Part shown: piece by piece, positions 27,684 through 51,369 of the stretch
Layout of the letters: each line of letters opens with the position of its first letter
Position numbering within the stretch: the stretch's first letter is position 1
NCBI GenBank assembly: GCA_030681595.1
Contig: JAUXSB010000008.1
Coordinates: 89,587-153,586 of the forward strand
DNA from: Candidatus Omnitrophota bacterium
GTDB lineage: Bacteria > Omnitrophota > Gorgyraeia > Ghiorseimicrobiales > Ghiorseimicrobiaceae
Length of the DNA stretch: 64,000 bases
Direction: 5' to 3'
The notes under the pieces: model-generated
Database searches by the model: none
Told to the model about the DNA's origin: nothing
The model's input: only the letters and a program-made list of their open reading frames with translations
Translations under genes and position numbers: made by a program

Positions 27684-27684
27684 A

Positions 27685-30114: not shown

Positions 30115-30142
30115 TTGACATAGCCTCAAAATATGGTAACAT
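30115..30142 (+). promoter_or_regulatory. internal sigma70-like promoter TTGACA-N16-TAACAT
   Basis: TTGACA at 30115-30120 and TAACAT at 30137-30142. The first ATG (30146) would lie upstream of the predicted start site, so ATG 30170 is the more likely start codon. Confidence 0.45.
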
Positions 30143-30169
30143 TTTATGTATGTTTTTGAAAGGATCAAT

Positions 30170-30409: not shown

Positions 30410-31342
30410 ATGAAGAAAACAGTTTTAGTCACAGGCGGCGCAGGATTTATCGGTTCACATCTATGTGGCAGGCTGATAACTAAAGGATATAAGGTAATTT
30501 GTATGGATAACTTGCTTACCGGCAGGCTATCTAATGTCCGCCGCCTCTTAAAAGATAAAAACTTTAGGTTTATAAAACATAACATTTGTGATTATATTAA
30601 GATAAGTTCTAAAATAGGCTATATCTTGCATTTTGCCTCACCGGCAAGCCCCGCCGATTATTTAAATTATCCGATTCAAACCCTGAAAGTCGGTTCTTTG
30701 GGTACCCATAATGCCTTAGGTTTGGCTAAAGCCAAAAGAGCGGTTTTTTTGCTTGCTTCGACTTCGGAAGTTTATGGGGACCCTTTAGTGCATCCTCAAT
30801 CCGAGAGCTATTGGGGCAATGTTAACCCTGTAGGCCCGCGGGGCGTGTACGACGAAAGCAAGCGTTTTGCTGAAGCAATAACTTTGGCGTATCATCGCGT
30901 GCACAAGATCGATACTAAGATTGTGCGTATTTTTAATACCTACGGGCCGCAAATGAGAAAAAATGACGGCCGGGCAATTCCTAATTTTATATCTCAGGCA
31001 TTGTCCAATCGCGATATTACTGTTTACGGCAAGGGAAGCCATACCCGTAGCTTCTGTTATATTGACGATTTGATAGATGGCATATTCAGGTTAATGCTCT
31101 CAAAGATCAATGAACCGGTTAACGTAGGCAACCCCGCAGAATACACGGTGCTAAGATTGGCCAAGGAAATAGTTAAGTTGACCGGATCAAAAAGCAAAAT
31201 TGTTTTTAAGCCCCTGCCGCAGGATGACCCAAAAGTCCGCTGCCCGGATATCACAAAAGCCAAAAAGGTGTTGGGATGGTTGCCTAGCGTTTCTTTGAGC
31301 GATGGCCTAAAAAAAACCATAGAATATTTTCGGAGTAGATAA
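30410..31342 (+). CDS. uxs: UDP-glucuronate decarboxylase (UDP-xylose synthase-like SDR)
   Basis: [15 protein letters not shown] and [10 protein letters not shown]...[11 protein letters not shown]...[19 protein letters not shown]. Confidence 0.78.
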
Positions 31343-31343
31343 T

Positions 31344-32486: not shown

Positions 32487-33497
32487 ATGCTTAAAATAGC
32501 GCAGATTGGGATAGGCAGTTGGGGGCGTAACCTTTTAAGGAATTTTGCCGCACTTTCCGATTCACAGGTTACGCTATGTTGTGACCAGAATAAGAAGGTG
32601 CTGGAGAGCATAAAGGCGCAATATAACAATAAGATAAAGGTTACTACAAGGTTTGATGATATATTGGAAGATCCCGATATTGATGCGGTAGTTGTCGCGA
32701 CACTTCCCCAAACACACGCCCATTTTGCCATAAAGGCGCTGTCAAGCGGAAAACATGTCTTTGTTGAAAAGCCGTTATCTTTAGATATTGCCGACGCTGA
32801 AAAAATGATAAAAGCGGCAGAGAGAAACAAGCGCCTCTTGATGGTCGGGCATTTACTCTTATATCATCCGGCAGTAAGAAAGCTAAAAGGCTATATTGAA
32901 CAAGGCTATTTAGGCGATGTGCGTTACTTATATTCGACAAGGGTGAATCTTGGGCAGGTCCGCGAGATGGAAAATGCTCTTTGGAGCCTTACGGCGCATG
33001 ACATATCCGTAGCGATGTATTTATCAAATAAAAAACCGCTTAAAGTTTCCGCCACCGGCAAAGCGTATCTTAGAAAAAATATACAGGATGTAGTTTTTTT
33101 AAATATCAGTTTTAAAGACAATGTTATCGCCCATATACATGCCAGTTGGCTTGACCCGCATAAAATAAGAAAATTCACCGTTGTCGGCTCAAAGAAAATG
33201 GCAGTGTTTGATGATATGGACCCGGCTGAAAAAATCCGTATTTACGACAAAGGCTATGATTGGCAGAAAAACGTGGGCACATACGATACTTTTCTTACTT
33301 TAAGAGAAGGAGATATTAATATCCCGCGCGTAGACATGGTTGAGCCGTTAAAGCTTGAATGCCAGCATTTTGTTGATTGTATCAGGGATAGAAAAAGGCC
33401 TTTTACAGACGGAGAAAGCGGATTGTCTGTCTTAAAAGTTTTGAAGGCCGCACAGGAGTCTCTAGAATTAGATGGCGTACCGGTCAAAATCAAATAA
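32487..33497 (+). CDS. Gfo/Idh/MocA-family oxidoreductase (WbpB-like sugar 3-dehydrogenase candidate)
   Basis: N-terminal Rossmann [11 protein letters not shown] and the family's C-terminal domain. Confidence 0.72.
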
Positions 33498-33513
33498 AAA
33501 ACGGGATTATTTT

Positions 33514-34068
33514 GTGCATGAGTCGTCCTATGTAGACAAAAATGTCTCAATAGGCAGAGGTACCAAAATCTGGCATTTCTGCCATATTTTGGAAGGTTCC
33601 GCTATAGGCACGAACTGTAAGATCGGGCAAAATGTCGTAATCGGGCCGAATGTAAGGATAGGTAATAATGTTAAAATACAAAATAATGTTTCTGTTTATC
33701 CGGGCGTAATATTGGAAGACGATGTATTTTGCGGCCCAGCGTGTGTTTTTACGAATGTTTTTAACCCTAGGGCCGACATAGCAAGGATGGATGAGATGCG
33801 CCATACTTTGGTAAAAAAAGGCGCTACTATTGGTGCAAATGCCACGATTGTCTGCGGCCATACTATAGGTAGATATGCCTTTATAGGCGCAGGAGCGGTA
33901 GTTACTAAAAATACCCCGGATTTCGCTCTGGTTTATGGTAATCCTGCCAGAGTGTCCGGCTATATGTGTGAGTGTGGCATAAAACTAAAATTTAATAAAT
34001 TAAGCGCTTATTGTGTTGCTTGCGGCAGGCGGTATAGGATTAAGAAAGGAATAGTAGAAAATGAGTAA
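33514..34068 (+). CDS. left-handed beta-helix (hexapeptide) sugar N-acetyltransferase (WbpD-like)
   Basis: Hexapeptide repeats ([25 protein letters not shown]). GTG 33514 chosen as start; track gave 33472, which overlaps the upstream gene. Confidence 0.65.
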
Positions 34069-35719
34069 AGCAAAGAAACTGCGGGAGTTGTTCGCTAATG
34101 AGAAAATAATACGCGTAGTTGGCGCGCATAACGCCTTAAGTGCGAAGTTAGTCGAAGGCGCGGGGTTTGATGCGGTCTGGTCAAGCGGTTTAGAGATTTC
34201 AACCAGCTTTGGCGTTCCGGACGCGAATATTCTTACTATGACTGATTTCCTGAATGTTTCTAGTATTATGAATGAGGCCGTCTCTATACCTATCGTTGCT
34301 GATTGTGATACGGGGTTTGGTAATTCTAATAACGTGATTCACATGGTTAAAAAGTATGAAGCCGCGGGGATAGCCGCGGTTTGCCTAGAGGACAAATATT
34401 TCCCTAAGGTTAATAGTTTTATTCCGGGAAGGCAGGAGTTGGCTTCGATTTCGGAATTTGTCGGTAAGATTTTGGCGGCCAAAAATGCCCAGCTTAGTAA
34501 GGATTTTATGGTTATCGCCAGGGTAGAAGCATTAATTGCCGGATGGGGAATGGATGAAGCATTGAGGAGGGCGGGGGCCTACGCGGATGCCGGAGCAGAC
34601 GCTATACTTATCCATAGTAAAAGTAAAACTATCGATGAAATAGCTGAGTTTGCAAAGCGTTGGAAAAATATGTCGCCGTTGGTTGTCGTGCCTACGACTT
34701 ACTGCGATGTCCATATTGACGATTTAAGCCGTATCAACATCAAGATGGTTATTTACGCCAATCAAGGAATAAGGGCATCGATAAAGTCGATGCAGGAGGT
34801 TCTTGGGCGAATACATAAGGATGGGACTAGTAGAAATATCGAAAACCATATCAGTACCATGGAAGAAGTTTTTTGCCTCCAGGGCATGCATAAAATGAAA
34901 GAAGATGAACTTGTTTATTCATCCACAAGCGATAAGATTGTAGCTGTTATACCTGCCGCGGGGGATCATTTAGAAGAATATTCGATGAAAGATATATCAA
35001 AAGATATCCCGATTACGATGCTGGACATTAATGGTAAATCGCTCTTGCAGCGCCAGGCCGATATATTAAACAGGTCAAAAATCTATGATATCAGAGTGAT
35101 CGGCGGGTATAAAAAAGAAAAAATAAGCGTCGAAGGCGTAAAAATTATACCTAATTTAGAATATGAAACGCGGGGAATGATCCATTCGATTATGTGCGCG
35201 TTGAAAGACATTAAAGATTCGGCGTTTATTATATACGGAGATACACTTTTTGACTATTTGCTTATCAGTAAGATATTGAATACCCGCCGTGATATAACAT
35301 TGGCAGTTGATACAAGTAATGTGATAGGTGATGCTGGAACGGGCAAGAAGCCGGAGCTTGTTTTGACTGATGGCCCGGTTAAATCCCGGAGAAGAAGTTT
35401 GCATCAGGATAGCCTGCATGCGGTGAAAGACATCGGAAGCTCTGTTAAATACGCAAAGGATAATTTACAATTTACCGGTATTATGTTTTTATCGCAAAAA
35501 GGCGTAGAGATATTCAAGAAGAATTACGCCAAATATGAAAAAGAATACGCGCGGTCAAAGTCGCCAGAGGCAGGTACCTTTTGCCGCATGAATCTAATCG
35601 ATTTTTTAAAAAAATTGCATGATTCAGGCTATGGAATTGACTGTCTGTATGTTAATTCCGGGTGGATGGAAATCCATTCGCTCGATGATTATAAGCTTGC
35701 CTGCTCAATTTTTAAATAA
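34061..35719 (+). CDS. ppm: phosphoenolpyruvate phosphomutase fused to a C-terminal nucleotidyltransferase domain
   Basis: ICL/PEP-mutase fold with the Ppm-diagnostic [10 protein letters not shown] (EDK-x5-NS) and [10 protein letters not shown]-terminal roughly 250 aa is NTP-transferase-like (IVAVIPAAG...). Confidence 0.78.
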
Positions 35720-35728
35720 AGAAATTTT

Positions 35729-36217
35729 ATGATTAGGGTAAAAGATTTTTGGGATTATTTAGCGGGAAAAAATTTTATTTTTTTTAGCGGGGTACCGTGC
35801 TCTATTTTTAAAACGGTGTTAGATGAGGCAATAAATAGCGAAATCATTACATATGTTCCGGCTGTGCGGGAAGATGTTGCCATGGGAGTAAGCTCCGGCG
35901 CGTATTTGGCGGGCAAGAAAAGCGGAATTTTAATTCAAAATTCAGGGTTGGGGCATATCGTAAATACCCTGACTTCGTTTAACCTTATTTACAAAATTCC
36001 CGTCCTCATGTTTATCAGTTGGCGCGGCTATATGGGTAAAGACGCTCCGGAGCATAAAATTATGGGTAGGAAAACGATAAGTTTGTTGAGTGGCCTTGAT
36101 ATACCGCATAGGGCGCTTAGCGTAGATTTTGACAAAGATTTGAACTGGGCAATCGGCATAATGGAAAAGAAACACATCCCCGTTGCGTTAATAGTTAAAG
36201 AGGGCCTATTTAAATGA
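35729..36217 (+). CDS. ppd: phosphonopyruvate decarboxylase, alpha (N-terminal ThDP pyrimidine-binding) subunit
   Basis: TPP_enzyme_N-like 162-aa protein directly after ppm, overlapping the beta subunit by 4 nt. Confidence 0.7.
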   Translation: MIRVKDFWDYLAGKNFIFFSGVPCSIFKTVLDEAINSEIITYVPAVREDVAMGVSSGAYLAGKKSGILIQNSGLGHIVNTLTSFNLIYKIPVLMFISWRGYMGKDAPEHKIMGRKTISLLSGLDIPHRALSVDFDKDLNWAIGIMEKKHIPVALIVKEGLFK

Positions 36218-36777
36218 CGACCGAGGATATCTTGAGATCAGTCTTAGCTTTTAAGGTTGATAACGCCGTATACCTTTTTACTAACGGCTATATCAGCCGG
36301 CAGGCCTACGGAATCGCCGATAGCGCTAAGAATTTTTATTTGATCGGGTCAATGGGGTTAGTTTCTTCCTTAGGGTTAGGAATCGCCATGAACTCTAAAA
36401 AGAAAGTTGTCGTTCTAGACGGAGATGGAAGCATCTTGATGAATATGGGCACAATGCCGCTTATCGGGTACATAGAACCGAATAATTTGATACATTTTAT
36501 TTTGGATAACTTTGCCTATCATAGTACCGGTAACCAGCCGACTATTTCGGAAAATATAGATTTTTTAAAGATGGCTTGCGCTTGTGGGTACAAAAAGGTG
36601 TTTCGTTTTAAAAAGATCAGTGAATTTAAGAGCGCGCTACCAGAAATATTTAATGCTTGCGGCCCGGTTTTTGTGCATATGGTTATCGGCAAGAATGATT
36701 CCAGCGCCGGCCCCCGGGTGGGCCTGGCTCCTCTTATGCTCGCGCGACGCATTAGGAAAACCATAAGGTCTCTTTAA
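36214..36777 (+). CDS. ppd: phosphonopyruvate decarboxylase, beta (ThDP-binding) subunit
   Basis: ThDP motif GDGSILMNMG...N. Confidence 0.72.
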   Translation: MTTEDILRSVLAFKVDNAVYLFTNGYISRQAYGIADSAKNFYLIGSMGLVSSLGLGIAMNSKKKVVVLDGDGSILMNMGTMPLIGYIEPNNLIHFILDNFAYHSTGNQPTISENIDFLKMACACGYKKVFRFKKISEFKSALPEIFNACGPVFVHMVIGKNDSSAGPRVGLAPLMLARRIRKTIRSL

Positions 36778-36779
36778 TT

Positions 36780-37934
36780 ATGTTTCATATTTTTACTGTT
36801 ATAGGCGCTCGGCCACAATTTGTTAAAGCGGCGGTAGTTTCTCTGGCAATAAAGAGGCTGGGGCGTGGTATTATTAAAGAGTCTATTATACACACGGGAC
36901 AGCATTACGACTATAGTATGAGCGGTATTTTTTTTAAAGAATTGAATATTCCCCGGCCGATAGATAATCTTAATGTTGGTTCTTTTAGCCATGGTAAGCA
37001 GACCGGTATTATGCTGGAGAGGCTGGAAAGGGTTTTTATTAGGGATCATCCTGATATGGTTTTAGTTTACGGCGATACAAATTCTACTTTGGCGGCAACG
37101 CTCGCCGCCGCTAAATTGCACATACCTGTCGCCCATGTGGAAGCCGGCATGCGCAGTTTCAATAAATTAATGCCGGAAGAACTTAACCGTGTAGCGGTAG
37201 ACCACATGAGCGATATTTTATTCTGTTCTTCGGATGCCTCGGTAAAGAATTTACGCCGGGAAGGAATACCGGATAAAAATAACGGTAAGTGCTGCGTTGT
37301 GTTAAATGTAGGCGATGTTATGGTTGATGCTTTAAAATTTTTTTATAGTTATGCAGAGAAGAGGTCAAAAATATTAGCTAAATTGAATCTTAAGCCCCGG
37401 AATTATTACTTAGTTACTGTGCATAGGGCAGAAAATACGGATAGTTTGGAAAAATTAAAAGTTATTTTTAAATCTTTGAATATCATCGCCGAGAAAGGCA
37501 GTTGTGTCGTGATTCCCATGCACCCGCGCACTCTCAGCGCGTTGAAAAGATTGGGGATGAAGAATTTTTCAAAAAATATGCGTATAATCGGACCTGTTTC
37601 TTATTTTGATATGCTGCTTTTGGAAAAAAACGCGGCAGGAATTTTTACTGATTCAGGCGGCGTGCAAAAAGAAGCCTATATTTTTAGAGTGCCTGCTATT
37701 ACATTGAGGACAGAGACAGAGTGGGTGGAGACCGTAAAGAGCGGATGGAATACCTTGGTGCCAATAAACGAAAAGGCGATTATGTTGGCTTTTGATAAGA
37801 TGGCGCGCTTTAAGCGGGATTCTTTGAGGGTCACAAGCAATATTTACGGTGACGGGAAGGCATCTGGCCGCATAGCCGGTTTTTTTCAAAAATATTTTAT
37901 AACAACAGTAAAAATTAAACCAGGACTCGGCTAA
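36780..37934 (+). CDS. UDP-N-acetylglucosamine 2-epimerase (WecB/WbpI/NeuC family)
   Basis: FHIFTVIGARPQFVKAA N-terminus, HVEAGMRS and PMHPRT motifs. Confidence 0.8.
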   Translation: MFHIFTVIGARPQFVKAAVVSLAIKRLGRGIIKESIIHTGQHYDYSMSGIFFKELNIPRPIDNLNVGSFSHGKQTGIMLERLERVFIRDHPDMVLVYGDTNSTLAATLAAAKLHIPVAHVEAGMRSFNKLMPEELNRVAVDHMSDILFCSSDASVKNLRREGIPDKNNGKCCVVLNVGDVMVDALKFFYSYAEKRSKILAKLNLKPRNYYLVTVHRAENTDSLEKLKVIFKSLNIIAEKGSCVVIPMHPRTLSALKRLGMKNFSKNMRIIGPVSYFDMLLLEKNAAGIFTDSGGVQKEAYIFRVPAITLRTETEWVETVKSGWNTLVPINEKAIMLAFDKMARFKRDSLRVTSNIYGDGKASGRIAGFFQKYFITTVKIKPGLG

Positions 37935-43297: not shown

Positions 43298-44659
43298 ATG
43301 GCAAAAGTTACTGTATATATAACAGCGCATAATTACGGCAAGTACGTTAAAAAGGCTATAGATAGCGTTTTGAGCCAGAAATTTAATGACTGGGAATTGA
43401 TTGTTATTAATGATGGCTCAACCGATAACACTAAAGAGATCCTCAAAAAATATAGTTCACATGGCAAGATAAAAGTTATACATCAAGAAAAAAAAGGTTT
43501 AGCCGTAAGTAATAATATCGCGCTGAGGCTTTCGCGCGGCGAATATATCATGCGTCTTGACGCGGATGACTACCTTGATGAAAATGCGCTGTTAGTCCTG
43601 TCTAATATTTTAGATAGCCATCGCGATGTGGGCTTGGTCTATCCTGACTATTATAGGGTAGATGAAAAGGGTGAGATTATTGATATAGAAAGAAGGAAAA
43701 AGGTCGGCAAAGATGCAAAATTGCTGGATCTGCCAGCGCATGGGGCATGCACGATGATACGTAAATCATGCCTTTTGGATTTAGGCGGCTACGATGAATC
43801 GCTTTCGTGCCAGGATGGATATGACCTATGGATAAGGTTTATAAACAGATTTAAGCCGTATAACGTGAATATTCCATTATTTTATTACCGGCAGCATCCC
43901 TTAAGCCTTACGCGCGACCGGGAGAAAATACTTCTCACCAGGCATGGCATAAAGAGGAATTTCGTAAGGAAGAATTTTCTAAAAATCCCCAAAGTTTTGG
44001 CAATAATACCAATAAGAAAAGAATCGGATGCAAGCACGGCTTCCGCTTTAAAGGAATTTACAGGCAGGCCATTAATTGATTTTACCATTTTGGAAGCGAA
44101 AAAAACAAAGCTGCTTGATAAAATAGTAGTTAGTTCTGACGATGACCGGATACTTAAATACGCGGCTAAATTTAGCGGTATATCATGTGTTAGGCGCCCT
44201 GAGGAATTATCTTTACCGAATTCGCGTATAGAGCCGACGGTTGATTATGTGCTTAAAGCGTTAAGAAGAGAAGCGGGTTATAAACCGGACGCGGTTATGT
44301 TGTTATATATCCATACGCCGTTAAGAAAATATATTCATATTGAGAAAGCCATTGATACAATGCTTATTTTTGGCGTAGACAGCGTGGTATCGGTTTGCGA
44401 AGATTATAGTTTTTATTATCGCCACAACAAAAATGGGCTTACGCCGTTTTCGCGCAAGCGGCTTTTGCGCCTTGAACGGGAAGCGCTCTATAAAGAAAAT
44501 TGCGCTTTATATCTTTCGCGTGTATCTTCGATTACGAAAGATAATTTTTTGGGAAAGCGGATTGGGCATATTACGATGCTGCCGCAGGAAAGTATAAAGT
44601 TAGACAATGAATTTGATTTTTGGCTGGCGGAAAAGATCGCTAAAGAATGGAAAAACTAA
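43298..44659 (+). CDS. bifunctional GT2 glycosyltransferase / CMP-sugar synthetase-like (CTP_transf_3) protein
   Basis: N-terminal GT2 (VINDGSTDNT, RLDADD). C-terminal NeuA/KdsB-like domain (LAIIPIRKESDAST...VVSSDDDRI). Confidence 0.62.
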   Translation: MAKVTVYITAHNYGKYVKKAIDSVLSQKFNDWELIVINDGSTDNTKEILKKYSSHGKIKVIHQEKKGLAVSNNIALRLSRGEYIMRLDADDYLDENALLVLSNILDSHRDVGLVYPDYYRVDEKGEIIDIERRKKVGKDAKLLDLPAHGACTMIRKSCLLDLGGYDESLSCQDGYDLWIRFINRFKPYNVNIPLFYYRQHPLSLTRDREKILLTRHGIKRNFVRKNFLKIPKVLAIIPIRKESDASTASALKEFTGRPLIDFTILEAKKTKLLDKIVVSSDDDRILKYAAKFSGISCVRRPEELSLPNSRIEPTVDYVLKALRREAGYKPDAVMLLYIHTPLRKYIHIEKAIDTMLIFGVDSVVSVCEDYSFYYRHNKNGLTPFSRKRLLRLEREALYKENCALYLSRVSSITKDNFLGKRIGHITMLPQESIKLDNEFDFWLAEKIAKEWKN

Positions 44660-45813
44660 AATTAATTTCGAAACGCATCAAAAATCCTATCGGATGCCTG
44701 CCGCTTCGTAAATACGCAAGTAGTGCAAAAAGCGTATTAATAATTACGGATGATAATACCAGGTTTACTCCGTTAAAAAGCATATTGCCGATAGTATTAA
44801 ATGAATTAAGGGACGCGGGGATAACCAATAAACAGCTAAAGATATTAATTGCATCCGGCACGCATCGGCCGATGACAAAAAAAGAGATTAGAGATAAATT
44901 CGGCTCTGCGCTCGCAGCCAATTACAAAATCTATAATCATTCTTGGAATAAAGAATCTTCCTTATCAAGGATCAGCGAAAAAATCAGAGGCAGGCGTATT
45001 TGCATTAACCGCCTGGCAAAGGAGGCGGATTTTATAGTAGGCATAGGAAGCATTGTGCCGCATGCTACGACAGGGTTTTCAGGCGGCGGTAAAATAATCT
45101 TGCCCGGTATTTGCGGCAAGGAAACAGTTGAAGACATGCATTGGGAGGCTTTAAATTTCCAGATGAAAGAAATCTTAGGGGTTTATGATAACCCTATGCG
45201 CAGGAGGGTGGATTCCGTAGCAGAAAAATCAGGGCTTAAGTTTATAGTTAACGCGATTATGGATTGTAAGGGCAGGCTTGTAGATGTGGTAGCCGGCGAT
45301 CCGGTTAAGGCGCATAAAAAGGGAGTAGAGCTCGCAAAAGCTATATTTGGCCTGCCTATGGATAGCCTAGCCGATATCGTAATAGCGGATGCAAAGCCTA
45401 TGGATATAGATTTACGTCAGGCAATTAAAGCGGTTGCTTCAAGCGAACTTGCTGTTAAAGACGGCGGAGTTATTATACTTTTGGCGAGATGCCCTGAAGG
45501 GGCGGCACCGCAGTTTCCGGAATTTGAAAAATACGGATTTAGCGACCCTGATAAATTAAAAGTTATGGCAGAAAAAGGAAAAATAAATAGATTAGCCGCT
45601 TATACATTGATTGCCATAGGGAGAATCATAAAGTATAAAGCGAAGGTTATTTTAGTCTCAAAAGGGATACCTCGCGGGGCTGCCGAAAAGTTAGGATTTC
45701 TCTGGGCGAGATCTTTGGAAGCCGCCTTGAGAAAAGCAAAAGATTTAAGCGGACAGAATGCGAGAGTTGTTTTTTTGAAGAGGGCCTGCGAAGTATTACC
45801 GTTGATGAATTAG
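44647..45813 (+). CDS. LarA-like (DUF2088, lactate-racemase N-terminal-domain family) protein
   Basis: Whole-protein pattern resembles nickel-pincer-nucleotide-dependent LarA homologs, with a GFSGGGKIILPG region. Assigned by pattern memory only. Confidence 0.45.
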   Translation: MEKLKLISKRIKNPIGCLPLRKYASSAKSVLIITDDNTRFTPLKSILPIVLNELRDAGITNKQLKILIASGTHRPMTKKEIRDKFGSALAANYKIYNHSWNKESSLSRISEKIRGRRICINRLAKEADFIVGIGSIVPHATTGFSGGGKIILPGICGKETVEDMHWEALNFQMKEILGVYDNPMRRRVDSVAEKSGLKFIVNAIMDCKGRLVDVVAGDPVKAHKKGVELAKAIFGLPMDSLADIVIADAKPMDIDLRQAIKAVASSELAVKDGGVIILLARCPEGAAPQFPEFEKYGFSDPDKLKVMAEKGKINRLAAYTLIAIGRIIKYKAKVILVSKGIPRGAAEKLGFLWARSLEAALRKAKDLSGQNARVVFLKRACEVLPLMN

Positions 45814-45841
45814 AATGTAATTTAATAATTTGGAGGCATAA

Positions 45842-46516
45842 TTGTCTGAAAGAGTCGGTAGGTTAATAAAAAAAACCATCGGCAAGCTACCTTTTTTTAT
45901 CAGGAAAATATATACAAAAAGGAAGAAGCGCGAAGAGTTGTTTGACTATTGGACTTCTCCTAATGATGGTAACAATAATCCTACAGAATATTTAAAATGT
46001 AGGGAGCGTAGCGCCTTTTTGCTGAATTTGATTACAAAATATCTTGACAAAAAAGACAGAGTTCTAGAAATCGGATGCAATGTGGGACGTAATCTCAATG
46101 AGTTATTTTGCGCAGGTTTTAACAATCTATCCGGTGTTGAAATAAACAAGAACGCAATAGAAATAATGAAAACGGTATATCCAAATATGGCGCAGGTAAT
46201 TAAGATTTATCAGGGACCTGTTGAGAATTTTATTGGAAGTTTCGAAGATGATTCTTTTGACTCTGTATATACGATGGCCGTCTTGGAGCACATACATACG
46301 GATAGCGAATTCATATTTTCGCATATGGCACGAATAGCCAGGAAAATTTTAGTTACGATTGAAGATGAAAGAGGAGTATCCTGGCGGCATTTTCCGCGGA
46401 ACTATAAGAAGGTCTTTGAGGATTTAGGAATGAGGCAGATAGAGGAGATTAGTTTGAAGCAAACCAAAGTCGAAGGACTGGATAAAAAATTTTTTGCCAG
46501 AGTTTTTAAAAAATGA
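45842..46516 (+). CDS. class I SAM-dependent methyltransferase
   Basis: VLEIGCNVGRNL (motif I). TTG start behind RBS tggagg. Confidence 0.55.
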   Translation: MSERVGRLIKKTIGKLPFFIRKIYTKRKKREELFDYWTSPNDGNNNPTEYLKCRERSAFLLNLITKYLDKKDRVLEIGCNVGRNLNELFCAGFNNLSGVEINKNAIEIMKTVYPNMAQVIKIYQGPVENFIGSFEDDSFDSVYTMAVLEHIHTDSEFIFSHMARIARKILVTIEDERGVSWRHFPRNYKKVFEDLGMRQIEEISLKQTKVEGLDKKFFARVFKK

Positions 46517-48135
46517 ACAACTATAGAACAAGCATAGTAGCTATAATACCAGCAAAAACGGATTCAAAGAGGTTGCCTAATAAAAATATGGCCCTAATAA
46601 ATGGTAAGCCGCTTTTATATTATACGATTAAGACGGCAAAGGAATGCGGGCTGTTGGATAAGATATATGTCTCAACCGATTCAGCGACTATCGCGGAGTT
46701 CGCAAAGAAAGAAGGAATATCTGTGATTATGCGTCCTGCCGAACTCGCAGGAGAAACGCCTGTGGTTGAAGTCTACCGTCATGCTTTGTTGAACGTCCCC
46801 GATGAAGATATCGTCTATGTAGTTGGACTTCAGCCCGACCACCCTGACCGGACCATAGATTTAGAAAAAGCAATAAAATTTGCCTTAGAAAAGGATTTAG
46901 ATGACTTAATAAGCATTGATTCCAGCGGATTAAAAAACGGCTCCATTAGGATAATGAAAGCGCAGGCTTTAAAGGAAGGAAGGATAAGCGTAAATTCAGG
47001 TTCGATTATAGATAATTCGACCAACATCCATTCATTAGGAGACCTAAAAATTGCTCAGATTCGACTTAAACAAAAAGGCCATCCTTTGACCATTAAAATA
47101 AATGGTAAGATTGTCTCAAAACAATCACCCACTTTTATAATTGCCGAAGGCGCCTGTAATCATATTTGCGATATGGACATTGCCAAAAAGATGATTGATG
47201 CGGCGGAGGCTTCAGGTGCCGATGCCATAAAGTTCCAGACGTATAAAGCCGAGCGGCTGGTCGCAAAAGACGCAAAAACCTACTGGAATTACAGTTCGGT
47301 AAAATCTCAATATGAATATTATAAAAAATTAGATAAGTTTGACCGGGATGAATATAAGGTTTTGTTTGACTACGCGAAAAATAAAGAAATAATAGTTTTT
47401 TCAAGCCCGTTTGATGCAGAAAGCGCTGATATGCTTAATGAGTTAGGTATGCCTTTATTTAAAATCGCCTCTTGCCTTATTCCCGACTTAAAGCTAATAA
47501 AACATATCGCCAAATTTAAAAAACCGATTATTCTCTCCTTGGGCGGTTCAGAAGTTGATGAGATAAAGGAAGCGATAGATGTGATATACAGCCAAGATAA
47601 TTATTCCTTAATCCTTCTTGCCTGTACATTGAGCTATCCTTCAAAAAATGAGGATGCACATCTTTTGCGCATACGTTCACTGCAACTGATGTTTCCGGAT
47701 ACAGTTATCGGCTATTCCGATCATACCGAGCCCGATGAAAATATGGTCATACCTTCGCTTGCCGTAAGCCTGGGGGCAAAAGTAATTGAAAAACATTTTA
47801 CGCTTGATAGGGCAATGACCGGTTCAGGACATTCTTTTTCTGTTGATCCAGTTTGCCTTAAAAAAATGGTTGAAAATATAAGATTAGCGGAAAAAGTAAT
47901 GGGAAGTGCCGAGATAGCGGTTAAGGGAGCGGAAGAAAAAACGCGCCTTGGCGCGCGGATGAGCGTTGTGGCGGCAAGAGAGATTAAAAAAGACGCGGTA
48001 ATAACCGAAGATATGCTTACGGTTTTAAGGCCGGGGACAGGCATATCGCCGCGGTTCATTAGCAAAATAGCTAATAAGAGGGCAAAACGCGATATCGCGG
48101 CATTTGACCAATTAAACTGGGATGATATTGAATAA
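46513..48135 (+). CDS. fusion of CMP-nonulosonate synthetase-like cytidylyltransferase (N-terminal) and NeuB-family nonulosonic acid synthase with SAF domain (C-terminal)
   Basis: N-terminal IVAIIPAKTDSKRLPNKN...VSTDS. C-terminal PTFIIAEGACNH...ADAIKFQTYK (NeuB TIM barrel) and a SAF domain. Confidence 0.75.
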   Translation: MNNYRTSIVAIIPAKTDSKRLPNKNMALINGKPLLYYTIKTAKECGLLDKIYVSTDSATIAEFAKKEGISVIMRPAELAGETPVVEVYRHALLNVPDEDIVYVVGLQPDHPDRTIDLEKAIKFALEKDLDDLISIDSSGLKNGSIRIMKAQALKEGRISVNSGSIIDNSTNIHSLGDLKIAQIRLKQKGHPLTIKINGKIVSKQSPTFIIAEGACNHICDMDIAKKMIDAAEASGADAIKFQTYKAERLVAKDAKTYWNYSSVKSQYEYYKKLDKFDRDEYKVLFDYAKNKEIIVFSSPFDAESADMLNELGMPLFKIASCLIPDLKLIKHIAKFKKPIILSLGGSEVDEIKEAIDVIYSQDNYSLILLACTLSYPSKNEDAHLLRIRSLQLMFPDTVIGYSDHTEPDENMVIPSLAVSLGAKVIEKHFTLDRAMTGSGHSFSVDPVCLKKMVENIRLAEKVMGSAEIAVKGAEEKTRLGARMSVVAAREIKKDAVITEDMLTVLRPGTGISPRFISKIANKRAKRDIAAFDQLNWDDIE

Positions 48136-49951
48136 GATTAGGTATTTTTTAAAGAGATACCCTGATAAGAAGGCAGTGATATTAGTAAATTTAATAAATC
48201 CGGCGCATAGACTGGATCATTACCTTTGCGCCATACCAAAAGATTCGACTTTTATTTTTTGGGGTATTGATATACCGCGTGGATTAAAAGAACTAGGCTT
48301 AAACATAAAGACATCCGAGGGTTATTTGGATGCTAACGATTATAAGGCCATCGATAGTTATGTATTCAGAGGCCTAAGCAAGTCTTGGTATTTGCATAAT
48401 AGCATTACTGATTATAAGGGAATTCATTTAGGTAAAATATTTGAATACGATTTCCAGAAATTTTTAGTGCCGAGAATAAAAAATTTAGAGATTTTGAGCA
48501 AGGTATGCAGCGCGGAAAAACCCGAGAAAATAATAGTGTTGGATGATTCCGGTGAATTATGGACCGCAGCCAAGTTATACGCAAAAATCGTTGATATCCC
48601 GGTGCTGACGGTAAAAATCAATAACACAAAAGTGGGATGTTTAGCACGGGTAAGCTCATATTTGAAACGCGCTCTTTCCCAGGCGTTAAGCGGTGTTATA
48701 AATTACGTATCATTAAAGCGGCTTTATCGGCAAGCGAATGCCAAACATACTTTGGTGGATGCAAAACTATTTAACTATTTTTCCGGGCATAATAGCGGCA
48801 TGGCAGTTATGCCGTCTATATTAGATGGCGGTTTTAATTATCGCTGGAAAATATTTTCTTTGCGGCAGCCTTATTTATCGTTTTATTCTTCCGGACGCGC
48901 GCGGTATCTAAAAGAATATAACGTTTACAGAAGGCGGTGGCATCTTTTATCGTCCGATAAAGGATTCCGGGATATTTTTACCTATAAAGGTATTCCTTTG
49001 TGGGATATCCTTCATTTAAAGCTTGCCGATTTTTTTCTAAAAGGTATTCCGCGTATAATTAGTAATTTTAAGCTATTGGATAATTTGTGCCAAAGGCTTG
49101 ACATAAAATCCGTGTTGTTGCGCAACGATGTAAAAGAACAGGAGCGAACAATGATTTTATCTCTGCGCCTGCATAAAATCCCTTCTTTGGTTATGCAGCA
49201 TGGCATATTGGCGGAATCAAACGGCCACAATGAATTATTGGCGGATAAATTTATCGCCTGGGGAAAAGCGTCAGCCGATTGGTATGAGAAGTTCGGAAAT
49301 TCAAAGGATAAATTTTTTATAGCGGGCAATCCGCGTTTTGATAAATTAAAAGATTGGAAGCCCGAGCTATCCAGGGATATTTTATATAAGAAACTTGGCA
49401 GGGATTTAAATAAAAAAACAATTTTATTTGCCACACAACAAGTTAATAAATTCTCTTCTTTCTGGACCGATGATTTATTCTGGGTGATGGCGGATGAGTT
49501 GTTAAAATGCATCAAAGGGAGGCCCGACATTCAGTTAATTATAAAATGTGACCCTTATGAAGATGTGCTGCCGTATAACAGGATAGCCGCTTATTATCCT
49601 GATGCGCAGGTAACAACTATCAGGAATTTTGATATTTATACGCTAATATACCATTCCGATCTAGTAATTACGCTTGATTCAACGGTGGGCCTAGAGGCTA
49701 TGCTTTTTGATAAACCGTTGATTACCTTTAATTTAACCACTAGGGAAGACAGGGTTCCTTATGCGCAAAAAGGCGCGGCAGTCGCTGTCTATAAGGATGA
49801 TACTTTGGGGGATGCGATTGAGCGGGTATTAAATGATAAAAATTTAGCCCTTCAGCTTAAAGAAGAGAGGAAAAAATTTATTTTGGAATACGCTAACAAT
49901 ATCGAAAACAAGGCCAGGGAAAAGATGCTAGCGATAGTCAGGGAAAGATGA
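48122..49951 (+). CDS. TagF/KpsS-like (Glyphos_transf / capsule-synthesis family) GT-B transferase, putative
   Basis: C-terminal half resembles CDP-glycerol glycerophosphotransferases (HGILAE...IAGNPRFDKL; ILFATQQ...). Low-confidence family call. Confidence 0.38.
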   Translation: MILNKIRYFLKRYPDKKAVILVNLINPAHRLDHYLCAIPKDSTFIFWGIDIPRGLKELGLNIKTSEGYLDANDYKAIDSYVFRGLSKSWYLHNSITDYKGIHLGKIFEYDFQKFLVPRIKNLEILSKVCSAEKPEKIIVLDDSGELWTAAKLYAKIVDIPVLTVKINNTKVGCLARVSSYLKRALSQALSGVINYVSLKRLYRQANAKHTLVDAKLFNYFSGHNSGMAVMPSILDGGFNYRWKIFSLRQPYLSFYSSGRARYLKEYNVYRRRWHLLSSDKGFRDIFTYKGIPLWDILHLKLADFFLKGIPRIISNFKLLDNLCQRLDIKSVLLRNDVKEQERTMILSLRLHKIPSLVMQHGILAESNGHNELLADKFIAWGKASADWYEKFGNSKDKFFIAGNPRFDKLKDWKPELSRDILYKKLGRDLNKKTILFATQQVNKFSSFWTDDLFWVMADELLKCIKGRPDIQLIIKCDPYEDVLPYNRIAAYYPDAQVTTIRNFDIYTLIYHSDLVITLDSTVGLEAMLFDKPLITFNLTTREDRVPYAQKGAAVAVYKDDTLGDAIERVLNDKNLALQLKEERKKFILEYANNIENKAREKMLAIVRER

Positions 49952-51369
49952 AAAAAGTCCTTCTTATAAATCCGCCTTCAGGTATGTACATAAGGGATGA
50001 CCGCTGTCAAGTCCCGGTTAAGGGCATTTCTTCTGCCCTGCGTACACCGCTGGATTTGGCGTATATGGCGGCTGTGCTGGAGCAATCAGGCAATCAATGT
50101 GTGATTAGAGATTATCCTGCGGAAAGGAAAAACTGGCAAGACCTTAAGGATGATTTAAAGCAAACTAAATTCGATATACTTATCATCAGCGTTACTACCC
50201 CTACGGTTTATATCGATATTATTGCTTGCGATATCGCCAAGGAGCTAAATCCGCAAATTGTGACTATTGCTAAGGGGGCGCATTTTGCCGCGCAAGATTT
50301 AGAAATTATTGAGCATTTTAAAAGTTTGGATATCGTTATACGCGGCGAATATGAGTTGGCGGTTGGTGAAATAGCCGATAAAAATGACCTTTCGGGTGTT
50401 TTAGGCATTACATACCGGATAAACGGCGCAATTAAAAAAAATCCCGATAGGCCATTCTTGGAAAATATGGACATCCTGCCTTTTCCCGCCCGGCATCTTT
50501 TAAATAACAGCCTATACACACGGCCGGATACGGGTGAAACGATGACCTCCATTCAGACAAACAGGGGTTGCCCTGCCAGATGCGTATACTGTTTGGTAAG
50601 CCTTGTATCCGGCAGAAAAATAAGGGCGAGGTCTGCGGAAAATATAGTTCGCGAAATGCAGGTTTGTAAAGAAAAGTTTGGAATAAAAAACTTTTATTTT
50701 AGGGCCGATACTTTTACCTGGGATAAAGAATGGATGATAGAAGTATGCAAAAATATCATAGAGCGAAAGCTTAATGTGAGCTGGGTATGTAACAGCCGGG
50801 TTGACACAATAGATAAAGAGCGCCTTGAGTGGTTAAAAAAGGCTGGTTGTTGGATGATAGGTTTTGGCATTGAAAGCGGCGATCAGGATATTTTAAATAA
50901 AATGAAAAAAGGTATAACATTAAAGCAGGCATTGGATTCCGTTTTCCTCTCTCGGCAATTCGGGATGAAGACATATTTATTTTGGGTCTTAGGCCTGCCG
51001 TGGGAAACCGAAGAATCTATTAGAAATACCATGAAATTCGCAAAAAAGATACAGGGCGATTTTGCGGAATTTCATATTGCTTATCCTTTTCCGGGGACCG
51101 AGTTTTACAATATTGGTTTAGAGAATAATTTATTCAAGGCCCAGGACCTTTATAAGGGCGATGTTAAGGCCGGGATAGTAGGGAGTTTTACTTTGCCAAA
51201 AGAAAAATTGCTGCAGTACCAGAAAGAGATAACCATGAGCTATTATTTGTCTTTTGGCAGGATTCTAAGATTGCTTAGCGGGGTTAAGTCGCCAAAGGTT
51301 TTGGCAAATTATATTACCAAAGGGTATTCTGTATTATTTAATCGCGGAGGAAGCGACAGCAATGGATGA
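49948..51369 (+). CDS. class B (B12-binding domain) radical SAM protein, cassette 1
   Basis: N-terminal B12-binding-like domain, TNRGCPARCVYC (Cx3Cx2C). Paralogous to 56109 and 62353. Confidence 0.75.
   Translation: MKKVLLINPPSGMYIRDDRCQVPVKGISSALRTPLDLAYMAAVLEQSGNQCVIRDYPAERKNWQDLKDDLKQTKFDILIISVTTPTVYIDIIACDIAKELNPQIVTIAKGAHFAAQDLEIIEHFKSLDIVIRGEYELAVGEIADKNDLSGVLGITYRINGAIKKNPDRPFLENMDILPFPARHLLNNSLYTRPDTGETMTSIQTNRGCPARCVYCLVSLVSGRKIRARSAENIVREMQVCKEKFGIKNFYFRADTFTWDKEWMIEVCKNIIERKLNVSWVCNSRVDTIDKERLEWLKKAGCWMIGFGIESGDQDILNKMKKGITLKQALDSVFLSRQFGMKTYLFWVLGLPWETEESIRNTMKFAKKIQGDFAEFHIAYPFPGTEFYNIGLENNLFKAQDLYKGDVKAGIVGSFTLPKEKLLQYQKEITMSYYLSFGRILRLLSGVKSPKVLANYITKGYSVLFNRGGSDSNG

What the first reader, a model, noticed from the sequence alone, without database searches (positions are those of the whole stretch)
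43298..48135. Nonulosonic-acid branch with two unusual fusions: CMP-synthetase-like/NeuB and GT2/CMP-synthetase-like
46513-48135 joins an N-terminal NeuA/KdsB-like cytidylyltransferase to a C-terminal NeuB-family synthase with SAF domain. 43298-44659 joins a GT2 to a second CTP_transf_3 domain. The locus has four nucleotidyltransferase domains in total. The 2-epimerase at 36780 (WecB/NeuC family) could supply the hexosamine. Coupling sialic-acid-like sugar synthesis and activation in one polypeptide, in the same locus as phosphonate genes, suggests a decorated nonulosonate or Kdo-like sugar.
Basis: partly seen in the sequence, partly recalled or inferred. Interest (0 to 1): 0.55.

Follow-up and report, generated by a model that had tools for sequence, protein, structure and literature searches.

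The report
Paired sialic-acid-like sugar synthesis fusion genes
Both fusion genes are real and form a gene pair that stays together across several bacterial phyla, apparently to build and activate a sialic-acid-like surface sugar, but one of the two "activating" domains has lost its catalytic residues and probably serves only as a partner for the other.

Summary
Both ORFs exist exactly as described. 46513-48135 encodes cytidylyltransferase (CT) + NeuB + SAF. 43298-44659 encodes GT2 + CT-like.

The window comes from a Candidatus Omnitrophota genome assembled from a metagenome. Neither fusion is rare: each has more than 120 full-length sequence clusters at 48% identity or above. They are a linked pair. 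Every orthologous NeuB fusion whose neighbourhood I read has the GT2-CT gene close by, in Omnitrophota, Cytophagia, Dehalococcoidia and Pirellulales.

The NeuB domain keeps the metal, PEP and Arg314 residues. It forms its own clade and scores below NCBIfam's NeuB and PseI cut-offs. Here it has Leu at the putative catalytic Glu134 position.

The two CT domains are degenerate in complementary ways:
- The NeuB-fused CT keeps the CTP loop and Gln, but lacks the dimerisation arm and has N-I-H where D-I-D is expected.
- The GT2-fused CT keeps the arm and its Arg, but has lost the CTP loop, Gln104 and both catalytic Asp.

Best reading: a module that synthesises, CMP-activates and transfers a nonulosonate-like sugar, with a pseudo-CT partner. 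A heterodimer is inferred, not shown.

The WecB at 36780 more likely belongs to a UDP-ManNAc3NAcA cassette that makes the acceptor sugar. Phosphonate genes accompany the module only in the closest relatives.

The parts
46513..47082 (+). CTn: N-terminal armless cytidylyltransferase domain (aa 1-190) of the CT-NeuB-SAF protein.
   Evidence: Pfam CTP_transf_3 at aa 9-111. Foldseek TM 0.73 to CMP-NeuAc synthetases 1eyr and 6ifd. K15, R20, K24, N25, Q107, D109, R113, D167, N171 and H173 are invariant in 51/51 relatives. There is a 36-column gap where NmCNS has its dimerisation arm.
47110..47922 (+). NeuB-family PEP-condensing TIM-barrel domain (aa about 200-470).
   Evidence: Pfam NeuB 254.9 bits. 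Foldseek TM 0.92 to 1xuu. E212, K240, Q242, K317, S342, S402, D403, H404, E426 and H428 are invariant in 51/51, and S320 in 50/51. L322 stands at the NmNeuB E134 position.
47959..48132 (+). SAF (antifreeze-like) domain carrying R506, the equivalent of NmNeuB Arg314.
   Evidence: Pfam SAF 3.2e-10. R506 is invariant in 51/51 and aligns with R314.
43298..43972 (+). GT2 (GT-A) glycosyltransferase domain of the GT2-CT protein, with an intact D88-x-D90-D91 motif.
   Evidence: Pfam Glycos_transf_2 3.9e-31. Best PDB matches are K4CP chondroitin polymerase and 6p61. D88, D90 and D91 are invariant in 51/51.
43979..44656 (+). CTc: CT-like domain with the full CMP-sialate-synthetase fold but degenerate catalytic residues (a pseudo-cytidylyltransferase).
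   Evidence: Foldseek TM 0.79-0.84 to 6ifd and 1eyr. The Arg12-equivalent R240 is kept in only 16/51; Lys appears at the Lys21-equivalent in 1/51. Gln104 is replaced by Y337 (48/51) and Asp209 by K434 (40/51); the Asp211-equivalent is Asp in 17/51.
44390..44488 (+). Dimerisation arm of CTc (aa 365-397), with E368, H376, G380, L381 and E393 invariant; R391 aligns with catalytic Arg165 of NmCNS.
   Evidence: Alignments; frequencies. AF2 pLDDT is below 50 for aa 369-376 and 380-397 in the monomer model.
44647..45813 (+). LarA-like (nickel-pincer-nucleotide) 2-hydroxyacid racemase/epimerase homologue, a recurrent member of the module.
   Evidence: Pfam Lar_N and LarA_C. NCBIfam malate racemase model 296 bits, below its cut-off of 500. 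PDB 6d6z at 4e-51. Orthologues lie next to the pair in L005, L006, L007, L009, L010, L086 and L087.
45842..46516 (+). SAM methyltransferase that overlaps the start of CT-NeuB by 4 nt.
   Evidence: Pfam Methyltransf_11. Weak hit to NCBIfam Pse_Me-ase, 43.9 bits against a cut-off of 112. Orthologues are in L003 and L008 (246 bits) and L087.
48122..49951 (+). TagB/Capsule_synth-like GT-B protein, the candidate transferase for the CMP-activated sugar. It overlaps the NeuB ORF by 14 nt.
   Evidence: Pfam Glyphos_transf, Capsule_synth and Epimerase_2 at aa 387-586. NCBIfam BFO_1060 family GT 90.6 bits (cut-off 200) and surf_polysacc 75 bits (cut-off 125). An orthologue lies directly downstream of the NeuB fusion in L001, L006, L086 and L087.
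49948..51369 (+). B12-binding radical SAM enzyme, a recurrent neighbour of the pair.
   Evidence: Pfam B12-binding and Radical_SAM. Homologues lie next to the pair in L003, L008, L010, L086 and L087.
36780..37934 (+). Non-hydrolysing WecB-type UDP-sugar 2-epimerase. It probably makes the ManNAc(3NAc)A-type acceptor sugar, not the NeuB substrate.
   Evidence: NCBIfam wecB 295 bits (above cut-off 210) and NeuC 70 bits (below cut-off 236). In L006 it lies directly between the hexapeptide acetyltransferase and GT2-CT.
26385..34068 (+). UDP-sugar dehydrogenases, SDRs, a DegT aminotransferase, a GFO 3-dehydrogenase-like protein and a WlbB-like acetyltransferase: a cassette for a 2,3-diacetamido-uronic acid.
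   Evidence: Pfam, NCBIfam. The acetyltransferase matches PDB 3mqg at 3.4e-64. The same order is found in L006.
34061..36777 (+). PEP mutase fused to a nucleotidyltransferase, plus a split phosphonopyruvate decarboxylase: a phosphonate block that is an accessory to the module in this lineage only.
   Evidence: NCBIfam PEP_mutase 326.5 bits (above cut-off 319.55). Pfam TPP_enzyme_N and TPP_enzyme_C. Present in L086 and L087 and absent from L006 and the other phyla.

Best explanation
The two fusion proteins are the core of a widely distributed gene module that has not been studied experimentally. The module makes, activates and installs a sialic-acid-like sugar (a 3-deoxy-2-ulosonic, nonulosonate-type acid) on a surface glycan.

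Proposed steps:
1. The NeuB-SAF part of the 540-aa protein condenses PEP with an unidentified 2-acetamido-aldose. Catalytic competence is supported by residues and fold; the substrate is unknown.
2. The N-terminal CT domain (CTn) of the same protein converts the product to its CMP ester with CTP. This is inferred: the CTP-binding loop and Gln are intact, and the metal site is altered to D109/N171/H173.
3. CTn lacks the dimerisation arm which, in all solved CMP-sialate synthetases, reaches into the partner's active site and supplies a catalytic Arg.
4. The CT-like domain fused to GT2 (CTc) has lost the CTP loop and both catalytic Asp, but keeps a strongly conserved arm with an Arg at the Arg165 position.
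5. I therefore propose that CTc is a pseudo-enzyme that pairs with CTn. This would complete one composite active site and tether synthase, activator and the GT2 domain together. This step is inference only.
6. The GT2 domain has an intact DxDD motif and so probably uses a UDP-sugar donor. It probably adds the neighbouring sugar, for example the ManNAc(3NAc)A made by the upstream WecB cassette.
7. The TagB-like protein at 48122-49951 probably transfers the CMP-activated acid onto that sugar, as in Tannerella forsythia.
8. The LarA-like protein, the methyltransferase and the B12-radical-SAM enzyme are tailoring enzymes.
For: - Domain content and intact NeuB residues. AF2 model pLDDT 90.8, TM 0.92 to NmNeuB.
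- Pairing: GT2-CT lies within 10 kb of every orthologous CT-NeuB-SAF fusion read, in L001-L009, L086 and L087. It is also beside the fusion-clade NeuB of L010. Among the other NeuB loci only L076 carries a GT2-CT fusion.
- Complementary degeneracy is shown in three alignments and in 51-sequence frequency tables.
- Literature: the CMP-sialate synthetase active site is built from one protomer's globular domain and the other protomer's dimerisation domain, which carries the catalytic Arg (PMC6580227). R165A has no or strongly reduced activity. D209A and D211A cripple activity. Arg12 and Lys21 bind the nucleotide (PMC2901514).
- The CTc arm is disordered in the monomer model although it holds 5 of the domain's 15 invariant residues.
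- Independent canonical CT-NeuB fusions (L014, L020, L077) keep the arm and DxD, so the armless state is specific to this family.
- BFO_1060/TagB-like proteins are the Pse/Leg transferases acting on ManNAcA in T. forsythia (PMC5420450).
- GT2+CT, CT+NeuB and CT+methyltransferase fusions elsewhere link these activities.
Against: - There is no experimental data for any member, and no heteromer model could be computed.
- Armless CTs also occur alone and in GT2-CT fusions that look catalytically intact (P0285 in L092), with no arm-bearing partner in the DNA available. The arm may therefore not be required.
- CTn itself lacks Asp209/Asp211 (N171/H173), so its activity is not assured.
- In L010 the fusion-clade NeuB lacks CTn, and a different NeuB-CT fusion is present.
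- In L076 a degenerate GT2-CT sits with canonical CTs.
- The window's NeuB has Leu at the putative catalytic Glu134 position; across the family this position is D 32, L 13, E 4, S 2.
- No hydrolysing 2-epimerase, or any other conserved route to a free hexosamine, accompanies the module.
- The NeuB domain misses NCBIfam's equivalog cut-offs for both NeuB and PseI.
Confidence: 0.5

Rival explanations
1. One reading: two independent, active cytidylyltransferases. One activates the NeuB product. The other, fused to GT2, activates a second sugar acid (Kdo-like, or a second nonulosonate) for transfer by its own GT2 domain.
For: The CTc domain has the full CMP-sialate synthetase fold (TM 0.79-0.84). 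It aligns over the whole PseF model. GT2 fused to an apparently active armless CT exists elsewhere (P0285 and P0303).
Against: In CTc, Lys appears at the Lys21 position in only 1/51 sequences. Arg12 is kept in 16/51. Gln104 is replaced by Tyr in 48/51 and Asp209 by Lys or Arg in 49/51. The Asp211 position is variable. Mutating these residues in NmCNS cripples activity (PMC2901514). The PseF score of 62 bits is far below the cut-off of 205.
Confidence: 0.1
2. CTn is a self-sufficient minimal cytidylyltransferase. CTc is a non-catalytic domain that binds ligand, or acts as a scaffold or regulator for the GT2 domain, for example by sensing or handing over the CMP-sugar. No composite active site forms.
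For: Armless CTs occur as stand-alone proteins of 180-200 aa, and in fusions without any arm-bearing partner visible. CTc has its own invariant residues outside the canonical site: H347, H424, E431 and W442.
Against: The NeuB-fused CTn co-occurs with CTc in every locus read. The catalytic Arg of this enzyme family is always supplied in trans by the arm. CTc conserves exactly that arm and an Arg at that position.
Confidence: 0.25
3. The NeuB-type domain does not make a nonulosonic acid. It condenses PEP with a different aldehyde: a shorter sugar, or in this lineage phosphonoacetaldehyde from the adjacent PEP-mutase/decarboxylase genes. The result would be a new activated keto-acid. The LarA-like enzyme and the 2-hydroxyacid-dehydrogenase partners seen elsewhere would then act on the reduced 2-hydroxy form.
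For: No nonulosonate precursor pathway is conserved next to the module. The sugar-pocket positions differ from NmNeuB: N184 is replaced by Leu in 51/51, D247 by Gly in 48/51, and E134 is variable. The domain forms its own clade, away from the PseI, NeuB and SpsE references. It recurs with a LarA-like 2-hydroxyacid racemase, and CTn is fused to a 2-hydroxyacid dehydrogenase in P0241. Phosphonate genes are adjacent in the window, L086 and L087.
Against: The SAF domain and the Arg314 equivalent are invariant. Most carriers of the module have no phosphonate genes nearby. A BFO_1060/TagB-like transferase of the kind used for Pse and Leg lies immediately downstream. The closest solved relatives are Leg and Pse synthases.
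Confidence: 0.15

Closest known systems
Bacillus subtilis SpsE (legionaminic acid synthase, PDB 1vli) with SpsF (CMP-Leg synthetase); SpsA (GT2) and SpsB (TagB-like) are encoded in the same operon
   Same: SpsE is the best solved-structure sequence match to the NeuB-SAF part (3e-60). The same four activities are encoded together: GT2, TagB-like, NeuB-type synthase and CTP_transf_3 (PMC7439481).
   Different: In B. subtilis the four are separate proteins. In the window they are fused pairwise. The NeuB-fused CT lacks the arm and the GT2-fused CT is degenerate. The NeuB domain is only about 36% identical to SpsE and lies in a separate clade. The window has no SpsG-type hydrolysing epimerase.
Neisseria meningitidis NeuB (1xuu) and CMP-NeuAc synthetase (1eyr); Vibrio cholerae CMAS (6ifd)
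   Same: The NeuB fold matches (TM 0.92) and both CT domains have the CMAS fold. The metal and PEP ligands and Arg314 are conserved. CTn keeps the CTP loop and Gln104.
   Different: The canonical enzyme is a homodimer whose arms are swapped between two identical active sites. Here the functional elements are split between two different polypeptides. D-I-D is replaced by N-I-H in CTn, with a KdsB-like Q-x-D at 107-109.
Tannerella forsythia Pse/Leg loci with the TagB-like transferase Tanf_01245/BFO_1060
   Same: A TagB/GT-B-like gene lies directly downstream of the nonulosonate genes. The acceptor there is ManNAcA (PMC5420450). The window encodes a ManNAc(3NAc)A-type cassette and a protein similar to BFO_1060.
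   Different: The window protein has 609 aa rather than about 445, and scores below the NCBIfam cut-off (90.6 against 200). Transfer activity is inferred only.
Canonical CT-NeuB-SAF fusions found here (L014 Thermoplasmata, L020 Anaeromyxobacter, L077 Gemmatimonadales)
   Same: They have the same Pfam architecture, CTP_transf_3 + NeuB + SAF.
   Different: Their CT domain is full length (about 230-270 aa), with PARGGSKG..KN, LLQPTSPL, an RRQ arm and DxD. They have no GT2-CT partner and lie in other NeuB clades. They are independent fusion events.

Membership tests
NeuB-family nonulosonic acid synthase (PF03102 + SAF) | NeuB TIM-barrel followed by a SAF/antifreeze-like domain | tested here: met
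   Pfam NeuB 254.9 bits and SAF 40.8 bits. Foldseek TM 0.92 to 1xuu and 8h2c.
NeuB-family nonulosonic acid synthase (PF03102 + SAF) | Metal ligands His215/His236 and PEP-binding Lys53, Gln55, Lys129, Ser132, Ser154, Ser213 (NmNeuB numbering) | tested here: met
   H404, H428, K240, Q242, K317, S342 and S402 are invariant in 51/51, and S320 in 50/51.
NeuB-family nonulosonic acid synthase (PF03102 + SAF) | Putative catalytic acids Glu25, Glu134 and Glu234 (PMC8208679) | tested here: inconclusive
   E212 and E426 are invariant. The Glu134 position is Leu322 in the window; across the family it is D 32, L 13, E 4, S 2 of 51.
NeuB-family nonulosonic acid synthase (PF03102 + SAF) | Arg314 supplied by the SAF domain | tested here: met
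   R506 is invariant in 51/51 and aligns with R314.
NeuB (TIGR03569) or PseI (TIGR03586) equivalog | Score above NCBIfam's curated cut-off | tested here: not met
   308.7 against 399.65, and 281.6 against 340.25. The NJ tree places the family in a clade away from both references.
Legionaminic acid synthase (LegI/SpsE) | Clusters with characterised Leg synthases | tested here: inconclusive
   SpsE is the best sequence hit (207 bits), but the fusion clade does not group with SpsE in the NJ tree. No LegI reference sequence was available.
CMP-nonulosonate/Kdo synthetase (PF02348): CTn domain, aa 1-190 | CTP-binding loop with the Arg12 and Lys21 equivalents | tested here: met
   K15, R20, K24 and N25 are invariant in 51/51.
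CMP-nonulosonate/Kdo synthetase (PF02348): CTn domain, aa 1-190 | Mg2+ ligands Asp209/Asp211 (CNS), or Asp98/Asp225 (Kdo enzyme) | tested here: inconclusive
   N171 and H173 replace D209 and D211 (51/51). A Kdo-enzyme-like Q107-P-D109 is present (51/51).
CMP-nonulosonate/Kdo synthetase (PF02348): CTn domain, aa 1-190 | Dimerisation arm carrying the catalytic Arg165 | tested here: not met
   A 36-column deletion between aa 135 and 136. Foldseek TM to CNS structures is only 0.73.
CMP-nonulosonate synthetase (PF02348): CTc domain, aa 228-453 of the GT2 fusion | CTP-binding loop, Gln104 and Asp209/Asp211 | tested here: not met
   R240 is kept in 16/51. Lys at the Lys21 position appears in 1/51. 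Y337 stands for Gln104 in 48/51. K or R stands at the Asp209 position in 49/51. Asp at the Asp211 position appears in 17/51.
CMP-nonulosonate synthetase (PF02348): CTc domain, aa 228-453 of the GT2 fusion | Overall fold with a dimerisation arm and its Arg | tested here: met
   TM 0.79-0.84 to 6ifd and 1eyr. The arm is present; R391 (47/51) aligns with Arg165.
GT2 glycosyltransferase | GT-A fold with a DxD motif | tested here: met
   Pfam 108.7 bits. D88, D90 and D91 are invariant in 51/51.
Hydrolysing UDP-GlcNAc 2-epimerase NeuC (for 36780-37934) | NCBIfam NeuC_NnaA equivalog score | tested here: not met
   70.5 against a cut-off of 235.9. The wecB model scores 295.2 against a cut-off of 210.15.
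BFO_1060/TagB-like nonulosonate transferase (for 48122-49951) | Score above the NCBIfam cut-off; transfer from a CMP-sugar | tested here: inconclusive
   90.6 bits against a cut-off of 200. Position directly downstream of the NeuB fusion is conserved. Activity cannot be tested here.

The most novel reading that the evidence does not exclude
The armless, catalytically equipped CT fused to NeuB and the arm-bearing, catalytically dead CT fused to GT2 form an obligate heterodimeric CMP-ulosonate synthetase with a single composite active site. This would physically couple synthase, activator and glycosyltransferase into one assembly line. It would be a pseudo-enzyme-completed sugar-nucleotide synthetase not described before. 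A possible addition is a nickel-pincer (LarA-type) enzyme acting for the first time in glycan tailoring.
Probability: 0.3. Interest if true: 0.6.

Novelty: new variant of a known kind. Interest (0 to 1): 0.45.

Why it matters
Nonulosonic acids shape how microbial surfaces are recognised, yet their biosynthesis is known almost entirely from pathogens. This module is common in environmental phyla: Omnitrophota, Bacteroidota, Chloroflexota, Planctomycetota and Desulfobacterota-like symbionts. Automated pipelines annotate it simply as "N-acetylneuraminate synthase", "CMP-NeuAc synthetase" or "glycosyltransferase".

If the pairing model holds, three things follow:
- Automated pipelines over-count active cytidylyltransferases.
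- It gives a natural example of an active site split between an enzyme and a pseudo-enzyme.
- It offers a compact synthase-activator unit for making CMP-sugars.

The work also corrects the pathway logic for this locus: the WecB cassette makes the acceptor sugar, not the precursor.

Tried and rejected
It returned mostly stand-alone NeuBs. These were useful as negative controls, but it is not a census of the fusion.
- No LegI reference sequence could be obtained, so the tree cannot separate Leg-type from other clades. It is a simple NJ tree without bootstrap support.
- Literature searches for this domain architecture found nothing.
- I considered the fusion being an assembly or frameshift artefact and rejected it, given more than 120 independent full-length clusters.
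- I considered WecB as the NeuC-like supplier of ManNAc and judged it unlikely.
- I considered phosphonate genes as an integral part of the module and rejected this. They are, however, conserved in the nearest relatives.
- The idea that the trans-arm is strictly obligatory was weakened when armless CTs turned up without a visible partner.

Full report
**Observation**

The two ORFs are at the stated coordinates on the + strand: 43298..44659 (453 aa) and 46513..48135 (540 aa).

- The 540-aa protein carries CTP_transf_3 (aa 9-111), NeuB (227-466) and SAF (483-540) by Pfam.
- The 453-aa protein carries Glycos_transf_2 (5-131) and CTP_transf_3 (235-316).
- The locus does hold four nucleotidyltransferase-type domains.
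- The 540-aa protein is 100% identical to an NCBI protein from a Candidatus Omnitrophota metagenome-assembled genome, named "N-acetylneuraminate synthase family protein".

**How unusual are the fusions?**

They are not unusual in sequence space. For each protein, all of the best 120 clusters at 90% identity are full length with the same architecture. Identity ranges from 48-100% for the NeuB fusion and 55-94% for the GT2 fusion. JGI names them "SpsE/SpsF" or "CMP-NeuAc synthetase". I found no paper that describes either architecture.

Other lineages have made CT-NeuB-SAF fusions independently: L014 (Thermoplasmata), L020 (Anaeromyxobacter) and L077 (Gemmatimonadales). Those use a canonical, full-length CT.

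**The two fusions are one conserved pair**

- In every locus with an orthologous CT-NeuB-SAF (phmmer NeuB-domain score 388 or more), a GT2-CT gene lies within 10 kb, usually within one to three genes. These loci are L001-L009, L086 and L087, from Omnitrophota, Cytophagia, Dehalococcoidia and an unclassified bacterium.
- L010 (Pirellulales) has a fusion-clade NeuB without the CT, next to a LarA-like gene and GT2-CT. It also has a different NeuB-CT fusion.
- Among the roughly 70 loci with other NeuB clades, only L076 carries a GT2-CT fusion.
- Recurrent further members are a LarA-like protein, a small methyltransferase, a B12-radical-SAM enzyme and a TagB/Capsule_synth-like protein directly downstream of the NeuB fusion.

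**NeuB domain**

- The AF2 model is confident (pLDDT 90.8). It superposes on NmNeuB and PseI at TM 0.92. DAHP and Kdo8P synthases reach only about 0.4 at 13% identity or less.
- Residues aligned with NmNeuB are invariant in 51/51 family members: E25, K53, Q55, K129, S154, S213/D214/H215, E234, H236 and R314. S132 is kept in 50/51.
- The position of Glu134 is Leu322 in the window and its Omnitrophota relatives. Glu134 is one of three putative catalytic acids (PMC8208679). The family as a whole shows D 32, L 13, E 4, S 2 at this position.
- N184 and D247 are replaced by Leu (51/51) and Gly (48/51).
- The domain scores below NCBIfam's equivalog cut-offs for NeuB and PseI.
- Its best solved relative by sequence is B. 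subtilis SpsE, a legionaminic acid synthase (PMC7439481).
- In an NJ tree the fusion family is a separate monophyletic clade.
- So it is a competent-looking NeuB-family synthase of undetermined sugar specificity.

**The two CT domains are degenerate in complementary ways**

This is the main finding.

[quoted passage not shown] The latter carries a catalytic Arg: Arg165 in N. meningitidis, Arg169 in V. cholerae (PMC6580227). Arg12 and Lys21 bind the nucleotide. R165A has no or strongly reduced activity. D209A and D211A cripple activity. Gln104 matters for sugar binding and catalysis (PMC2901514).

| Feature (NmCNS numbering) | CTn (fused to NeuB, aa 1-190) | CTc (fused to GT2, aa 228-453) |
|---|---|---|
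| CTP loop (Arg12, Lys21) | Kept: K15, R20, K24, N25, 51/51 | Lost: Arg12 equivalent in 16/51; Lys at the Lys21 position in 1/51 |
| Gln104 | Kept: Q107, with D109 and R113, 51/51 | Tyr in 48/51 |
| Asp209-x-Asp211 | N171-I-H173, 51/51 | Asp209 position K or R in 49/51; Asp211 position variable |
| Dimerisation arm | Absent: 36-column deletion | Present: E368, H376, G380, L381, E393 invariant; R391 (47/51) aligns with Arg165 |
| Fold match to CNS structures | TM 0.73 | TM 0.79-0.84 |

Sources.

In the AF2 monomer model the CTc arm is the least confident region (pLDDT below 50 for aa 369-376 and 380-397). That fits an element that folds against a partner.

**Mechanistic reading**

Shown:
- domain identities;
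- conservation patterns;
- gene linkage.

Inferred:
- NeuB-SAF condenses PEP with an acetamido-aldose.
- CTn makes the CMP ester.
- CTc is a pseudo-enzyme that pairs with CTn. It supplies the arm and its Arg in trans and ties the GT2 domain to the synthase-activator.
- The GT2 domain has D88-x-D90-D91 invariant and so probably uses a UDP-sugar.
- The TagB-like 609-aa protein probably transfers the CMP-sugar. Its ORF overlaps the NeuB ORF by 14 nt, and it has weak BFO_1060 and surf_polysacc hits. In T. forsythia the BFO_1060/Tanf_01245 family puts CMP-Pse or CMP-Leg derivatives on a ManNAcA residue (PMC5420450).

**The upstream genes fit an acceptor-sugar role**

- 26385-34068 encodes two UDP-sugar dehydrogenases (one TviB/UDP-ManNAc-DH-like), SDRs, a DegT aminotransferase and a GFO protein closest to UDP-GlcNAc 3-dehydrogenase.
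- The same stretch encodes a hexapeptide acetyltransferase that matches PDB 3mqg/3mqh at 3.4e-64. To my knowledge that entry is WlbB of the 2,3-diacetamido-mannuronic acid pathway.
- The 2-epimerase at 36780 passes the non-hydrolysing WecB cut-off and fails the NeuC cut-off.
- In L006 the order is dehydrogenases, SDR, DegT, GFO, acetyltransferase, WecB, GT2-CT, LarA, CT-NeuB, TagB-like, with nothing in between.
- WecB therefore more likely yields UDP-ManNAc(3NAc)A, a probable acceptor or neighbouring sugar, than a free hexosamine for NeuB.
- No hydrolysing epimerase or complete Pse/Leg precursor set is conserved beside the module. The source of the NeuB substrate remains open.

**Phosphonate genes**

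The phosphonate block consists of a PEP mutase fused to a nucleotidyltransferase, a split phosphonopyruvate decarboxylase, a CDP-alcohol phosphotransferase-like protein, an NTP transferase, EamA and a radical-SAM/SPASM protein.

- The block is interleaved with the module in the window and in the two closest relatives, L086 (82% identity) and L087 (70%).
- It is absent from L006 (65%) and from the other phyla.
- It is an accessory specific to this lineage, possibly decorating the same glycan. It is not part of the core module.

**Caveats**

- A profile-free search with CTn alone shows that armless CTs form a wider family with the signature (D/N)-I-H.
- That family includes stand-alone proteins of 180-200 aa, and fusions to a 2-hydroxyacid dehydrogenase (P0241, on phage-like contigs), to methyltransferases, and to GT2 with an intact CTP loop (P0285, P0303).
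- In those contigs no arm-bearing partner is visible. The arm may therefore be dispensable, and CTc may have another role such as ligand binding, scaffolding or regulation.
- CTn's altered metal site and the window's Leu322 are further uncertainties.
- On the other hand, these fusions link GT2, CT and NeuB functionally by Rosetta-stone logic.
- The recurring 2-hydroxyacid enzymes (LarA-like, 2-Hacid_dh) hint at a 2-hydroxyacyl substituent, for example glyceroyl or lactyl, or at chemistry on a reduced keto-acid. I could not test either.

**Verdict**

- This is a new variant of a known kind: nonulosonate synthesis and activation with a split enzyme/pseudo-enzyme CT pair. It is widespread but uncharacterised.
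- Interest is moderate. It yields a clear, testable structural hypothesis and a correction to annotation, but no evidence of a new class of chemistry.

Noticed in passing
window 34061-36777 and 39604-43280: Phosphonate block: a PEP mutase fused C-terminally to a MobA-like nucleotidyltransferase, and a phosphonopyruvate decarboxylase split into two ORFs. These are followed by a CDP-alcohol phosphotransferase-like protein, an NTP transferase, an EamA transporter and a radical-SAM/SPASM protein. The NT3-EamA-rSAM/SPASM trio is conserved in L086 and L087. No AEP transaminase or alcohol dehydrogenase was seen, so the final phosphonate is unclear.
   Followed up: partly
window 44647-45813: A LarA-family (nickel-pincer nucleotide) racemase/epimerase homologue is embedded in a glycan locus and conserved next to the fusion pair across phyla. 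It is about 35 aa shorter at the N-terminus than solved LarA/Mar2. In the alignment to Mar2 (6d6z), His/Lys-containing stretches that I read as LarA's catalytic His and cofactor Lys motifs are kept. No larB/C/E genes are in the window.
   Followed up: partly
window 49948-54354 and 56109-59795 (plus 62260-63768): A cassette of B12-binding radical SAM, GT2 (about 240 aa), a methyltransferase (first copy only) and a PMT_2-like membrane protein appears twice in tandem. The copies are separated by a 580-aa methyltransferase-domain protein. A third B12-radical-SAM paralogue lies at 62260. The best NCBIfam hits are HpnJ, BchE and PhpK-type, all far below cut-off.
   Followed up: no
L089-L091 (P0241) and L092 (P0285): Armless CT domains occur in other fusions. 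One is CT + D-2-hydroxyacid dehydrogenase, on contigs that look phage-like (QueC, dCMP deaminase, many small ORFs), beside a SAF-less NeuB, GT2, methyltransferases and a sulfotransferase. Another is GT2 + armless CT with an intact CTP loop, beside a SAF-less NeuB, a radical-SAM/SPASM protein and an asparagine synthase.
   Followed up: partly
L010:6697-8514: In a Pirellulales genome, a reversed fusion (NeuB without SAF, followed by a CTP_transf_3 domain, 605 aa) sits beside a stand-alone fusion-clade NeuB, a LarA-like gene and GT2-CT.
   Followed up: partly
L011:509-2176 and L018:9217-12738: CT domains fused to Glyco_tran_28_C (PseG/MurG-like) domains lie next to NeuB genes in Anaerolinea and Vicinamibacteria. 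This shows that fusing the CT to other pathway enzymes is common.
   Followed up: no
window 38256-39368: A GDSL/SGNH hydrolase-family protein lies between WecB and the CDP-alcohol phosphotransferase-like gene. It is absent at this position in L086. It may be an O-acetyl esterase or transferase acting on the glycan.
   Followed up: no
window 1715-3888 (- strand): LptF and LptG lipopolysaccharide export permeases lie about 22 kb upstream of the glycan locus. This fits an organism with an outer membrane, and the glycan could be LPS-linked.
   Followed up: no
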